IMG/VR virus record: IMGVR_UViG_3300023179_000029
Span: 63,399 to 127,398 of that record
Reading direction: 5' to 3' (one strand)
DNA length: 64,000 nt
DNA from: a virus
Each line of letters starts with the position of its first letter. Positions within the stretch are counted from its first letter, which is position 1. Under the pieces are notes generated by a model that had not been told where the DNA came from, made no database searches, and was given only the letters and a program-made list of their open reading frames with translations. Shown here one piece after another: positions 46,777 to 51,620 of this stretch. The position numbers and the translations under genes are program-made.

Positions 46777-46810
46777 ATTTTATCATTGAGCAGGTAAAGA
46801 ACGGGTAAAG
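46777..46810 (-). promoter_or_regulatory. Direct-repeat promoter 7 (no ORF directly downstream)
   Basis: TTTACC-N5-TTTACC-N10-TAAAAT. Confidence 0.8.
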
Positions 46811-46829
46811 CCGGGGCTTTCGCCCCGGC
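46810..46829 (-). terminator. Terminator-like hairpin
   Basis: GCCGGGGC-GAAA-GCCCCGGC then TTT; identical hairpin within 48147-48168. Confidence 0.7.
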
Positions 46830-46859
46830 TCACCTGCGCCGCTCAACCAAACGGCAAAC

Positions 46860-47863: not shown

Positions 47864-47996
47864 CCTGCTTACTGCTCTTTCGATCCTTCTTATTCTTTTG
47901 TTTCTTTGAAGGATCATGGCTGCCTGCACTGTTCCTCATGTGAGCAGCGACGGCGACCAAGTTTCTAGTTTTGGGTTGAGTGATCTTTTTCATCAT
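47844..47996 (-). CDS. Small basic 50-aa protein (leaderless)
   Basis: MMKKITQPKTRNLVAVAAHMRNSAGSHDPSKK...; RNxVA...AGxH motif seen in small phage proteins. Confidence 0.6.
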   Translation of the reverse strand: MMKKITQPKTRNLVAVAAHMRNSAGSHDPSKKQKNKKDRKSSKQALRSLY

Positions 47997-48001
47997 TAGT
48001 T

Positions 48002-48035
48002 ACGTTAGCAGGTGGATGGTAAAGAGAGTGTAAAA
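48002..48035 (-). promoter_or_regulatory. Direct-repeat promoter 12
   Basis: TTTACA-N5-TTTACC-N10-TAACGT. Confidence 0.8.
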
Positions 48036-48113
48036 CATCCTACTAGTAGATTTGTCAGCTTCCTACTAGTAGTTTGGTCAGGTGTTTGTCTGGTCCGTCC
48101 CGCCCACCCTGTC

Positions 48114-48147
48114 ATTGTAGCGCAAAGCGGGTAAAGAAAGAGTAAAG
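48114..48147 (-). promoter_or_regulatory. Direct-repeat promoter 13 (no ORF directly downstream)
   Basis: TTTACT-N5-TTTACC-N10-TACAAT. Confidence 0.8.
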
Positions 48148-48457
48148 GCCGGGGCTTTCGCCCCGGCCCTCCCTTCGCATATGCTGGCTAATTTTTACAT
48201 CAGTTAGGCTTGCCTATTTTCCTAACCCAGATGGGACAAACGCTACTTTGTTATCCGAAACATGACTGCCGTAAGGTGGATCAGTCTACCGCACACGCAC
48301 CTATCTTAGCGTTGCGAACCTATAAGGACTGTTTAGCGAGATTTAGTCCACTCTCGGTAGCTCTCTGATAAGGCTAGCATAATCTATTATTTACCCTATA
48401 AAGGGAACGGATTACATTATCTAGCTACTTGGTTGTTGTTGCGCGCTTCATCAACAG
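48145..48457 (-). ncRNA. Candidate structured ncRNA (~310 nt)
   Basis: Bounded by promoter 14 and GAAA-loop hairpin; no ORF; multiple helices and potential pseudoknots. Confidence 0.6.
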
Positions 48458-48462
48458 GAACT

Positions 48463-48496
48463 ACTATAGCAGTCCAAGAGTAAAGACTAGGTAAAA
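48463..48496 (-). promoter_or_regulatory. Direct-repeat promoter 14
   Basis: TTTACC-N5-TTTACT-N10-TATAGT. Confidence 0.8.
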
Positions 48497-48539
48497 CATC
48501 TAATGTGTATTACCTCTGTCCCACCCGCCATACCCTACA

Positions 48540-48568
48540 AGTGTATCAACAAAATAATCGCTTGTCAA
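48540..48568 (-). promoter_or_regulatory. Consensus sigma70 promoter
   Basis: TTGACA-N17-TACACT with TG extension. Confidence 0.7.
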
Positions 48569-49147
48569 GTATCAAATAATCATAATACTTTTTATAGTAT
48601 ATTTCACTAGGGAAATTTCAATACTTTTCCCTGTAAATAAAGGCTTTTTATTTTTTGACAAATGAGGTATATTTATCAGAATATAATACAATAAATTGAT
48701 TGTATCATATATTTTTCATTTGTCAAGGGCAAATATTACTTTATTTATGCCTTAGCTGCGCAGAATACCATCACGGCACCTGTAACTACAAATAATACGG
48801 TCATAATACCTTTCAGATTGAATATTTTACTTATAGTAACGAATATATTACTTTCACCTATTATATACGCGCACGAGGGAGGGAGGCTGTTGAGGGGGGT
48901 GGATAGGTTGATCACACATAAAATGAATATGTGTCAGTCTCTTGGATCCCACAAATAAATGAATAAGTAGGATGCTGCCCCTACTGCTGCCCCCACGCAT
49001 ATCTTATTTATTAGATCAGGGGGAGCGATTGCCATAAATGTTATTCCTATGAGAATAGCTGAGACTATTCTTTTCTTTAGTATTGTTGTCATGTTTATTC
49101 TTTTATGTTATTCATTGTATTGTTATCTGGAGGAATGTGGGCGACTA

Positions 49148-50849: not shown

Positions 50850-51620
50850 TTAGTACCCGCTTACAGGCTCAATAAATTCGATATGACCGTCACCGTCAGG
50901 TGCAAAAAATGCCTGAGCATCCTCGTCCCACTTCAAGTCACCGAAATAGTCTAGCAGAGGATTGTCGCCCTCTTTTTTATCCCAACGGTAGCCGTAACCG
51001 ATGTACGCTCCGTCAGCGTCAGACACATCACCCTCACGGAAATCAAGGCGCACAGGTTCGCCCTTGCGATCATCAGCAGACTGAATAATGTAACTATTCC
51101 AGTCATATGAAATAATACCGGCCTCGCCATACTCACGGAAAATCTTTGGTGCCGTGTAGCCGCCACGAACATCGCAGCCGCCATGAATTTGTAGCATGAG
51201 ATAAATCTCACCCTCATACTCAAAGTAATGACCTTGAATAGTTTGCGAGAGCAGACAATCGTAGTTGTAAGAATTGAATCCACGAAGCCAATTGGTGGGA
51301 TACTTTTCACACCACTCGTCCATCAAAGTATACCAATCAGTCTTCTGATTTTCTTCCATATTACAAAAATCATCGAACTCGGATTGAATTTCTGGCATGA
51401 ACTCGATACGCTCGCGCAAATAATGAAATAGGTCAAGGCTGATGCCGTATTCTGTAACATTTACAGCGGGCGCGTCAATAAATGACTGAACATCCCTGCC
51501 TTTATTTCTTTCCCAATTGCGGCCATACGCGCCACCAGAGTCAAGCATATGACTCCCGGTATTTTCTGTCAGCATACCGGCAAGGATCTCGTCGGTCAGG
51601 GTAATGTTTTGATTAGTCAT
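50850..51620 (-). CDS. Conserved phage hypothetical protein
   Basis: MLTENTGSHMLDSGGAYGRNW and LQIHGGCDVRGGYT motifs; SD AAGGAG. Confidence 0.75.
   Translation of the reverse strand: MTNQNITLTDEILAGMLTENTGSHMLDSGGAYGRNWERNKGRDVQSFIDAPAVNVTEYGISLDLFHYLRERIEFMPEIQSEFDDFCNMEENQKTDWYTLMDEWCEKYPTNWLRGFNSYNYDCLLSQTIQGHYFEYEGEIYLMLQIHGGCDVRGGYTAPKIFREYGEAGIISYDWNSYIIQSADDRKGEPVRLDFREGDVSDADGAYIGYGYRWDKKEGDNPLLDYFGDLKWDEDAQAFFAPDGDGHIEFIEPVSGY

What the first reader, a model, noticed from the sequence alone, without database searches (positions are those of the whole stretch)
48145..48457. ~310-nt ORF-free, pseudoknot-rich candidate ncRNA with its own promoter and terminator
Seen: the unit lies between promoter 14 and a GCCGGGGC-GAAA-GCCCCGGC hairpin and has no substantial ORF. 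Helices on the minus strand are a 5' hairpin UGUUG/CAACA; a long stem 48373-48425 capped by CCCU/AGGG; an interleaved H-type pseudoknot CGAGA/UCUCG with GGACU/AGUCC (48326-48356); a CGCAACGC/GCGUGUGCG stem whose loop region (AGGUG) is complementary to the CACCU loop of the GACUG/CAGUC hairpin (kissing loop); a GGAUAAC/GUUUGUCC hairpin whose loop GUAGC matches GCUAC at 48357-48361; GGUUAGG/CCUAACU; and long-range AUCAG/CUGAU. Most G-U wobbles work only on the minus strand. It lacks tmRNA, RNase P and tRNA signatures. Inference: a possibly undescribed large structured phage RNA (ribozyme, scaffold, decoy or anti-defence RNA) expressed early.
Basis: partly seen in the sequence, partly recalled or inferred. 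Interest (0 to 1): 0.82.

Follow-up and report, generated by a model that had tools for sequence, protein, structure and literature searches.

The report
New folded RNA gene, lake phage
An uncultured freshwater phage carries a stand-alone gene for a roughly 310-base RNA whose knotted fold is kept by matching mutations in its relatives and which fits no catalogued RNA family; its job is unknown.

Summary
The unit at 48144-48457 (minus strand) is real. It has no ORF in W, a promoter-like site with a -10 placed the same way in all relatives, and a hairpin terminator. Rfam 15 and ARAGORN find nothing. I found three further full variants in lake-metagenome contigs (L004, L006, L009). A covariance model built from those three alone finds the window copy at 89.5 bits, E 3e-28, once per genome.

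Seven core helices, including the H-type pseudoknot, plus an eighth in the 3' domain, show compensatory changes. That is 12 of 47-48 core pairs with changes on both sides, 94% of cells paired, and 0 of 500 shuffles as good. An alignment not fitted to the structure gives 8 of 29.

The long stem is a variable insert.

The function is inferred: a stable trans-acting early RNA, probably binding a protein or ligand. The tip of P1 keeps a six-letter self-complementary word while changing its letters, which hints at dimers. No expression data exist, and only about two lineages are known.

The parts
48540..48568 (-). Upstream sigma-70-type promoter-like site (TTGACA, 17 nt, TACACT, with TG). No terminator lies between it and the RNA, so read-through could add a leader of about 75 nt.
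   Evidence: 10 of 12 matches; sequence
48497..48536 (-). G-rich mini-unit between the two promoters. A similar one precedes the RNA gene in L004, L006 and L009.
48463..48496 (-). The RNA's own promoter-like site: TTTAC boxes at 48495-48491 and 48484-48480 (11 bp apart), then TGC and TATAGT at 48471-48463. The -10 lies 6 nt before the conserved UGUUGAUG in all four variants.
   Evidence: repeat families D1/D2, copy 48462-48496
48144..48457 (-). The whole predicted RNA, about 314 nt from the predicted start to the end of the terminator hairpin. Both ends are predicted, not measured.
48234..48457 (-). Conserved core, P1 to P7. It is 224 nt here and 185-187 nt in the relatives.
   Evidence: model R1, built without this sequence, matches at 89.5 bits, E 3.4e-28, model positions 1-187 of 187
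48432..48455 (-). P1, the 5' hairpin (48455-48448 with 48439-48432). Its loop at 48447-48440 holds the six-letter self-complementary word GCGCGC; the relatives have GCUAGC there.
   Evidence: 8 pairs, 93.8% of cells paired, two U-G to U-A changes
48358..48427 (-). P2 (48427-48423 with 48362-48358). It encloses a variable hairpin of about 50 nt here and 14-16 nt in the relatives, followed by a conserved unpaired AGAG.
   Evidence: P2: 5 pairs, 2 with changes on both sides, 100% paired
48326..48357 (-). H-type pseudoknot. P3 is 48356-48352 with 48341-48337. P4 is 48349-48345 with 48330-48326. The third loop is A-rich.
   Evidence: P3: 2 of 6 pairs changed on both sides, in L009; P4: 4-5 bp in every variant with different letters
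48290..48316 (-). P5 (48316-48309 with 48298-48290). Its 10-nt loop UAAGAUAGGU is nearly the same in the four full variants.
   Evidence: (48297 G>A on the plus strand turns G-C into G-U)
48264..48286 (-). P6 hairpin (48286-48282 with 48268-48264).
   Evidence: 2 of 5 pairs changed on both sides, 100% paired; the same double exchange in W-like contigs of runs X3, X4, X5
48234..48256 (-). P7 hairpin (48256-48250 with 48241-48234), with a conserved loop AAAGUAG and a UG bulge.
   Evidence: 2 of 6 pairs changed on both sides, 100% paired
48172..48233 (-). Variable 3' domain. P8 (48227-48221 with 48208-48202) carries the loop AAAAUAGGCAAG, which shares AA-R-AUAGG-Y with the P5 loop. The eight-letter palindrome GCAUAUGC lies at 48184-48177. 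The domain is largely deleted in L004 and partly replaced in L009.
   Evidence: P8: 3 of 6 pairs changed on both sides; 21 of 500 shuffles as good
48144..48171 (-). Intrinsic-terminator-like hairpin plus T-rich tail. The tail overlaps the TTTAC boxes of the next promoter-like site. All four variants end in a G+C-rich hairpin with different letters.
   Evidence: a near-copy of the hairpin lies at 46807-46834

Best explanation
This is a genuine stand-alone gene for a structured non-coding RNA of about 310 nt, on the minus strand, 48457 to 48144. It belongs to a small clade of uncultured freshwater myoviruses that are distantly related to large actinobacterial phages.

Shown here:
- It has no conserved reading frame.
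- It has a promoter-like site whose -10 keeps a fixed distance to the first helix in all variants.
- It ends in a hairpin terminator in all variants.
- It has a conserved core of seven helices (P1-P7, including an H-type pseudoknot P3/P4) kept by compensatory changes.
- Around that core sit a variable inserted hairpin and an exchangeable 3' domain.
- It occurs once per genome.
- It sits in a block of small cassette-like early-type genes, and a close relative has a protein gene in the same slot.

Inferred:
- It is made early, by host RNA polymerase, as a discrete stable transcript.
- It acts in trans through its three-dimensional fold, most likely by binding and holding a protein or small ligand during host take-over, as a decoy or sponge. 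My estimate for this sub-claim is about 0.35.
- It may act as a homodimer joined through the self-complementary P1 loop.

The confidence given is for 'real structured non-coding RNA gene of no catalogued family', not for the function.
For: No ORF. The six frames of the four variants each carry 2-12 stops.

Signals. The -10 lies 6 nt before UGUUGAUG in W, L004, L006 and L009. In L004 and L006 the same -10 is preceded by TTGACT at 17 nt.

No known family: Rfam at gathering scores over the whole window gave 0 matches. At E up to 10, the only hits inside the unit fall on its terminator hairpin. There are no hits within the RNA homologues of L006 and L009. ARAGORN found 0 genes.

Homology: model R1 was built from L004, L006 and L009 only. 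It finds the window copy at 89.5 bits, E 3.4e-28, full length. It finds one copy each in 3 of the 4 records searched.

Covariation:
- Model-fitted alignment A5: 12 of 47 pairs changed on both sides, 94.1% of cells paired, 0 of 500 shuffles as good, slid controls 0-2.
- MAFFT alignment A3, not fitted, helices P3-P7: 8 of 29 pairs, 0 of 500 shuffles, slid controls 0-1.
- Model-fitted alignment A10, with the pseudoknot helix modelled: 12 of 48 pairs.
- P8: 3 of 6 pairs.

Other samples: a W-like contig of run X3 covers 48161-48344 and differs at 8 letters. Four of them make two compensatory exchanges in P6, one turns G-C into G-U in P5, and three lie in the P5 loop.

Context: the relative L003 has an ORF that I read as about 60 codons in the same slot.
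Against: No expression data. No RNA run was listed, so the transcript, its ends and its timing are all predicted.

Only four full variants exist, and three of them are 96% alike in the core. Most covariation therefore comes from one deep split (W against the rest) plus a few changes in L009. With so few related sequences the shuffle counts are not probabilities.

Two of the four pair counts use alignments fitted to the model.

Folding energy is not significant, and the plus strand folds as well.

The register of P4 in W depends on the alignment. P1 has a competing long-range alternative that I could not exclude. That alternative is 5 of 5 paired in the three close variants and 2 of 5 in W on alignment A5.

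L004, L006 and L009 have a sense-strand ORF of 34-36 codons inside the core. It is not open in W.

Nothing found here points to a particular partner or target.
Confidence: 0.8

Rival explanations
1. It is a cis-acting leader that controls read-through of its own terminator into the downstream genes: a riboswitch, attenuator or processive antiterminator RNA.
For: It lies in a same-strand series of genes and ends in a terminator-like hairpin. It has a compact pseudoknotted fold with conserved unpaired nucleotides, as aptamers do. Antiterminator RNAs of phage HK022 and the EAR element are precedents (recalled, not checked here).
Against: The DNA downstream differs in W, L004, L006 and L009, and in each case it starts with its own promoter-like site. 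The segment between the core and the terminator is deleted in L004 and replaced in L009, so no conserved switching element links the fold to the terminator. No Rfam riboswitch or leader family matches at E up to 10.
Confidence: 0.06
2. It is a base-pairing small RNA, or a type I antitoxin, that acts by antisense pairing with a host or phage message. One candidate target is the message of the 19-codon hydrophobic ORF just upstream.
For: Its size and its promoter-plus-terminator layout fit bacterial and phage small RNAs. A conserved tiny hydrophobic ORF (48804-48745) is its constant upstream neighbour.
Against: A short-word blastn of the RNA against the whole 127-kb genome found no antisense match longer than 11 perfect bases (E 7.7), which is chance level. 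L003 keeps the small ORF without the RNA. A seven-helix pseudoknotted core with conserved junctions is far more than a seed region needs. The host is unknown, so host targets could not be tested.
Confidence: 0.1
3. It is a ribozyme, or a free aptamer that soaks up a small molecule, for example a nucleotide signal of a host defence system.
For: It has a compact multi-helix fold with a pseudoknot and conserved unpaired junction nucleotides: AGAG, AAAC, the P5 loop and the P7 loop. It is an accessory early cassette among genes of the host take-over type.
Against: No match to any ribozyme or riboswitch family in Rfam at E up to 10. No cleavage-site signature or ligand clue was found. This rests on analogy alone.
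Confidence: 0.1
4. It is not a functional RNA. It could be a decayed protein gene, a spacer, or a DNA-level element such as an origin or a protein-binding site, whose inverted repeats merely look like RNA helices.
For: Folding energy is not better than shuffles, and the plus strand folds as well. The unit is missing from one relative. Contigs in other runs skip or replace parts of it (joints).
Against: Compensatory exchanges occur in eight separate helices, two of which form a pseudoknot. DNA cruciforms do not need that. G-U pairs would be C-A mismatches on the other strand. The promoter and terminator both point the same way. Indels between W and the relatives are not multiples of three, and stops fill all frames in W.
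Confidence: 0.05

Closest known systems
ROOL and GOLLD RNAs (large ornate RNAs of phages and prophages) and OLE RNA
   Same: They are phage-borne or bacterial stand-alone structured RNAs with several pseudoknots, no known function and no known protein partner. According to passages of PMC12286853, they assemble into RNA-only homo-oligomers. In OLE and GOLLD, symmetric kissing loops covary by switching between palindromes. The P1 loop here shows the same pattern (GCGCGC against GCUAGC).
   Different: They are much larger: the passages say many GOLLD members exceed 800 nt, and the ROOL and OLE sizes are recalled. ROOL and GOLLD often sit near tRNA islands, whereas this window has no tRNA. Their Rfam models do not match here. 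Multimerisation of this RNA is untested.
Abundant early non-coding RNAs of mycobacteriophages L5, D29 and StarStuff, made from the Pleft promoter
   Same: They lie in an ORF-free region behind a strong early promoter and give abundant, stable transcripts of unknown function that are toxic to the host (passages of PMC5712189). This phage's tail sheath is nearest to those of large actinobacterial phages.
   Different: blastn of the region against 50,697 phage records found no match. Those RNAs lie at the extreme right genome end of temperate siphoviruses, and the passages I read report no conserved fold for them.
Phage T4 small stable RNAs, species 1 and 2 (rnaC, rnaD)
   Same: They are stand-alone stable phage RNAs of unknown function (recalled; also named as closest known in earlier notes of this scan).
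   Different: They lie in the T4 tRNA cluster and are about 120-140 nt (recalled). No similarity was tested or seen here.
HIV-1 dimerisation initiation site (kissing-loop hairpin)
   Same: It is a hairpin whose apical loop shows a six-letter G+C-rich self-complementary word flanked by purines (recalled). It is a working analogy for the P1 loop only.
   Different: It belongs to an unrelated molecule and organism and serves genome dimerisation. There is no homology.
Candidate structured RNAs predicted from IMG/VR (Fremin, Bhatt and Kyrpides 2023, PMC10690425)
   Same: That screen covered intergenic regions of IMG/VR contigs for covarying structures (section 2.1 read). A sub-motif of this RNA could be in its list.
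   Different: Its candidates are 29-151 nt and needed at least three unique IMG/VR regions. The list is in supplements that were closed, so I could not check.

Membership tests
tmRNA | A tRNA-like domain formed by the 5' and 3' ends, plus a tag reading frame; detectable by ARAGORN and Rfam | tested here: not met
   ARAGORN found 0 genes in the window. No tmRNA family matched at E up to 10.
tRNA or tRNA-like RNA | Cloverleaf with a T-arm and anticodon arm | tested here: not met
   The UUCGGA segment is split between a junction and helix P7, and P7 covaries.
RNase P RNA, 6S RNA, SRP RNA, Y/YrlA RNA, C4 antisense RNA | A match to the curated Rfam covariance model | tested here: not met
   0 matches at gathering scores, and none of these families at E up to 10.
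ROOL / GOLLD / OLE / HEARO / raiA large RNAs | A match to the curated Rfam covariance model | tested here: not met
   I assume these families are in Rfam 15 (recalled). The tool reports only matches.
ROOL / GOLLD / OLE-like homo-oligomeric RNA (works like) | A symmetric intermolecular kissing loop whose palindrome covaries | tested here: inconclusive
   The P1 loop reads GCGCGC in W and GCUAGC in L004, L006 and L009. This is one exchange between two lineages, with a chance level I estimate at roughly 0.05. Six-letter palindromes are not enriched overall: 2-6 seen against 4-6 expected.
Riboswitch or cis-regulatory leader | Sits in the 5' leader of a conserved regulated gene, with an expression platform coupled to the aptamer | tested here: not met
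   The downstream DNA differs in all four variants and begins with its own promoter-like site. The 3' linker domain is deleted or replaced.
Type III antitoxin RNA (ToxI-like) | Tandem direct repeats of about 34-36 nt next to an endoribonuclease toxin gene (feature recalled) | tested here: not met
   No direct-repeat family lies inside 48172-48457. No toxin family appeared among the ORFs scanned.
Retron or reverse-transcriptase-associated non-coding RNA | An adjacent reverse-transcriptase gene | tested here: not met
   Pfam scans of 53 + 65 + 4 + 7 ORFs of the 127-kb record show no reverse transcriptase. The record is estimated 79% complete.
Actinophage early non-coding RNA (L5/D29 Pleft RNA) | Sequence similarity to the Cluster A right-end region; abundant early transcript | tested here: not met
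   blastn against phage records found no match. Transcript abundance cannot be tested here.

The most novel reading that the evidence does not exclude
The RNA is a self-assembling early phage RNA. Two copies, or more, would join through the self-complementary P1 loop, and perhaps through the palindromes in the exchangeable 3' domain. The resulting RNA-only complex would capture a host factor such as a defence or RNA-binding protein. That would make it a small actinophage-type counterpart of the ROOL, GOLLD and OLE homo-oligomers, and the first with an anti-host role.
Probability: 0.15. Interest if true: 0.8.

Novelty: new variant of a known kind. Interest (0 to 1): 0.58.

Why it matters
Complex-fold RNAs with many helices, a pseudoknot and conserved junctions are rare. 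Almost all those whose function is known are ribozymes, riboswitch aptamers or the cores of ribonucleoproteins. Phage-borne ones such as ROOL and GOLLD still have no function.

This one is compact: the core is about 190-225 nt. It has clear compensatory support. It sits in the early accessory block, where phages keep host take-over and counter-defence genes, and a close relative has a protein gene in the same slot. That makes it a tractable candidate for an RNA-based anti-host factor, and for testing whether palindromic-loop dimerisation extends beyond the giant RNAs.

Against that, it is known from only about two lineages of one uncultured phage clade. It has no host, no expression data and no partner. 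For now it is a well-supported orphan RNA family, not a new mechanism.

Tried and rejected
Known families. Rfam gave nothing at gathering scores on the whole window. At E up to 10 on 47900-48800, four of the five hits lie on the terminator hairpin and one on upstream AT-rich DNA. The same search on L006 and L009 gave nothing inside the RNA. ARAGORN found nothing.

Public phage records. blastn of 47900-48800 found no match. tblastn of the 1807-aa protein found no match. Only the tail sheath gave distant hits.

More homologues.
- Protein-anchored scans of IMG/VR gave three contigs in all.
- DNA pattern scans gave the same contigs, apparent duplicates (L005, L007, L008, L010, L011) and one new variant (L009).
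- L012, L013, L014 and L015 matched only the pattern itself, inside what reads as coding DNA. I dropped them as chance hits.
- I dropped no other rows before the pair counts.

Expression. No RNA holder was listed. Contigs of runs X2-X5 left 48360-48431 uncovered. I treat that gap as no evidence.

Tertiary contacts.
- The W-type kissing loop pairs 5 of 5 in W and 3 of 5 in the others.
- A relatives-type loop pairing (AUAG/CUAU) pairs 4 of 4 in the three relatives and 2 of 4 in W.
- An alternative to P1 (CCCAU/AUGGG) pairs 5 of 5 in the three and 2 of 5 in W.
None is settled.

Antisense targets in the phage genome are at chance level only. The shared loop word AA-R-AUAGG-Y is not a repeated operator: six hits in 127 kb, two of them in this RNA.

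Partner proteins. Pfam tallies over 129 ORFs show no RNA-specific family. PHROGs gave nothing for nine of the ten neighbouring small ORFs tested and one unknown-function family for the 256-aa ORF at 50850-51620.

Global palindrome enrichment: none. A T-loop or tRNA-like reading of UUCGGA is rejected, because P7 covaries.

Literature. Four full-text searches turned up no description of this RNA. Supplements of PMC10690425 were not viewable.
Full report
WHAT IS THERE. The window is the last 64 kb of a 127,398-bp IMG/VR virus record, estimated 79% complete. On the minus strand, no ORF of 25 aa or more lies between 48116 and 48571. The three minus frames of 48100-48540 carry 12, 11 and 10 stops, of all three kinds. 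The only plus-strand ORF there is a 52-codon TTG frame.

Directly upstream lies one copy (48462-48496) of a repeat that occurs at least 7 times between 46684 and 48496. It consists of two TTTAC boxes 11 bp apart, followed after 10-11 nt by TGC and a TAnnGT hexamer. A consensus sigma-70-type site (TTGACA, 17 nt, TACACT) lies a further 70 nt upstream. The unit ends in the strongest terminator-like site of the region, with 12 pairs, 9 of them G-C, and a GAAA loop.

KNOWN FAMILIES. Rfam 15 gives nothing at gathering scores. At E up to 10, four of its five weak hits fall on the terminator hairpin. ARAGORN finds no tRNA or tmRNA. blastn finds no phage record in GenBank that resembles the region.

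RELATIVES. Two protein-anchored scans of IMG/VR gave L003 and L004.
- L003 is a 31-kb fragment whose neighbour protein is 78% identical. The conserved small upstream ORF and the promoters are there, but the slot holds an ORF that I read as about 60 codons, and no RNA.
- L004 holds a homologue about 68% identical.
- Pattern scans with the most conserved stretch added L006 from a 136-kb contig and, from JGI metagenomes, L009.
- The other hits were apparent duplicates or chance matches in coding DNA, and I dropped them.

This leaves four distinct full variants: W, L004, L006 and L009. The last three are 96% alike in the core.

Runs from 12 studies, mostly lake and other freshwater metagenomes, hold pieces of the stretch. 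Contigs laid from four of those runs show further W-like variants.

STRUCTURE. I wrote down a structure on the three close variants and built model R1 from them. The window sequence was not used. R1 matches it over the full length at 89.5 bits, E 3.4e-28. It matches once in each of the three larger records.

| Alignment | Helices counted | Pairs changed on both sides | Cells paired | Shuffles as good | Slid controls |
|---|---|---|---|---|---|
| A5, fitted to the model | P1-P7 with P2a | 12 of 47 | 94.1% | 0 of 500 | 0-2 |
| A3, plain MAFFT, not fitted | P3-P7 | 8 of 29 | 94.0% | 0 of 500 | 0-1 |
| A10, from model R2 with P4 nested | P1-P7 with P2a | 12 of 48 | 94.2% | 0 of 500 | 0-2 |
| A9, MAFFT of the 3' domain | P8 | 3 of 6 | 88.9% | 21 of 500 | 0 |

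Helix by helix:
- P2: UAGUC/GACUA against UAGCU/AGCUA.
- P3: CGAGA/UCUCG, becoming CAACA/UGUUG in L009.
- P4: CGGU/ACCG, CGGUC/GACCG or GGACU/AGUCC.
- P5: the closing pair is U-A against C-G.
- P6: GAUAG/CUAUC against GACUG/CAGUC.
- P7: CUC/GAG against AAC/GUU.
- P1 changes only on one side (U-G to U-A).

Support from another sample: a 185-nt contig of run X3 differs from W at 8 letters between 48161 and 48344. Four of them exchange two P6 pairs, one makes a G-U pair in P5, and three lie in the P5 loop. That P6 form equals the one in the relatives, so recombination could explain it instead of new mutation.

Limits. There are effectively two lineages. The shuffle counts are not probabilities. 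The register of P4 in W shifts by one column between alignments.

- Supported: the 5' hairpin, the pseudoknot, the CGCAACGC stem, GACUG/CAGUC, GGAUAAC/GUUUGUCC and GGUUAGG/CCUAACU.
- Not conserved: the long stem 48373-48425. It is a lineage-specific insert in the place where the relatives have GACCG-GCGA-CGGUC or GUGAG-UAGCU-CUCAC.
- Not supported: AGGUG/CACCU (3 of 5 paired in the relatives); GUAGC/GCUAC, whose partner strand is occupied by P2; and AUCAG/CUGAU.

Folding energy alone would not have shown the RNA: z is -1.71 on the minus strand and -2.48 on the plus strand.

CODING AND DNA-LEVEL ALTERNATIVES. Each of the six frames in each variant has 2-12 stops. The three close variants share a sense ORF of 34-36 codons that is closed in W. 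Indels between W and the others are single bases. A pseudoknot, G-U pairs, and the shared direction of promoter and terminator all speak for an RNA of the minus strand.

CONTEXT.
- The tail sheath is nearest, at 27-29% identity, to Rhodococcus, Gordonia and Mycobacterium myoviruses. This agrees with note e1-6156041. An actinobacterial host is an inference.
- Pfam over 129 ORFs shows DNA polymerase III alpha, class II ribonucleotide reductase, RecA, DnaB, primase, RuvC, a sigma-70 region 4 protein, MerR, ThyX and an SNF2 helicase. It shows no reverse transcriptase, Ro, RtcB, RNA ligase or Cas protein.
- The RNA lies among small genes, each with its own promoter. Earlier notes on relatives of this phage read such units as shufflable cassettes. 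They read the boxes as sites for an OmpR/PhoB-type regulator (e1-5934969, e1-5934981). I had first thought of T4 middle promoters (recalled). I tested neither reading.
- In L004 and L006 the same -10 has a TTGACT at 17 nt, so host RNA polymerase alone could probably start there.

HOW IT MOST LIKELY WORKS. Shown: a conserved compact fold, exchangeable periphery, one copy per genome, accessory status, and no antisense target in the phage beyond chance. Inferred: an abundant, stable early RNA that acts in trans through its shape. The conserved unpaired stretches look like contact surfaces. They are AGAG, the A-rich third loop of the pseudoknot, the P5 loop, the P7 loop, and the AA-R-AUAGG-Y word shared by the P5 and P8 loops. 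I put about 0.35 on binding and holding a protein as a decoy or sponge. I put about 0.1 each on an aptamer or ribozyme role and on base-pairing with host messages. I put about 0.06 on a cis-acting role.

One extra clue concerns the P1 loop. It shows GCGCGC in W and GCUAGC in the other three. The two central letters changed together, so the word stays self-complementary. Passages of PMC12286853 use this same kind of change as evidence for intermolecular kissing loops in OLE and GOLLD. Here it is a single event, with a chance level I estimate at roughly 0.05. Palindromes are not enriched overall.

COMPARISON AND NOVELTY. The RFAM-catalogued families I considered failed their tests (see the membership table). 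In kind it resembles other orphan phage RNAs: ROOL and GOLLD, T4 rnaC and rnaD (recalled), and the abundant early non-coding RNAs of mycobacteriophages L5, D29 and StarStuff (passages of PMC5712189). It shares no sequence with the last group. A 2023 screen of IMG/VR lists 8,495 candidates of 29-151 nt (section 2.1 of PMC10690425). Its lists were not viewable, so a sub-motif may already be catalogued there. Four literature searches found no description of this RNA. This scan has noted other uncatalogued lake-phage RNAs with self-complementary loops (e1-5696708). A sequence look-up found no look-alike of this one outside its own genome.

VERDICT. This is a real, apparently uncatalogued structured RNA gene with good but shallow comparative support. 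Its function is unknown, and its interest is moderate.

Noticed in passing
window 48497-48536, 48082-48112; L004 1225-1250 and 1630-1655; L003 12090-12115; L009 about 220-245: Short G-rich units (runs of GGG separated by single bases) follow several promoter-like sites and run into the next promoter with no ORF. One precedes the RNA gene in all four variants. They may be G-quadruplex or R-loop forming.
   Followed up: partly
window 48745-48804 (-): A 19-codon hydrophobic ORF (MTVLFVVTGAVMVFCAAKA) with a ribosome-binding-site-like GAAAGG. It is conserved in L004 and L003, with synonymous changes visible in L004. It looks like a real tiny membrane peptide, of the size of a type I toxin. It is present whether or not the RNA is.
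   Followed up: partly
window 48038-48081 (+ coordinates): Two tandem 21-bp copies containing the palindrome CTACTAGTAG (repeat family D10). One copy also lies just upstream of the RNA's promoter in L009. This could be an operator for a DNA-binding protein.
   Followed up: no
window 46807-46834 and 48145-48172: The same G+C-rich hairpin (89% identical over 28 nt) occurs twice. Each time it is followed by the two TTTAC boxes of the next promoter-like site, so terminator and promoter are fused into one module.
   Followed up: partly
L003 12150-12355: In the relative that lacks the RNA, the same slot holds an ORF I read as about 60 codons, of unknown function, behind the same kind of promoter. 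This is cassette exchange between an RNA gene and a protein gene.
   Followed up: partly
window 48600-48660 (-); L004 1020-1060: A conserved hairpin (AGGGAAA ... UUUCCCU) sits in the AT-rich stretch between the two sigma-70-type promoters, downstream of the site at 48699-48726. It may be another small transcript or a terminator.
   Followed up: no
joints at 48190/48502 and 48356/48502: Contigs from other freshwater runs join the flanks while skipping or replacing the whole RNA (311 nt) or its 5' third (145 nt replaced by 129 other letters). This suggests mosaic exchange at module borders. The match threshold was low (80%) and each joint rests on a single contig.
   Followed up: no
G000:C1:1-63398 (outside the window): The phage encodes a sigma-70 region 4 protein and a MerR-type regulator (Pfam tallies). 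Either could belong to the control of the box-type promoters.
   Followed up: no
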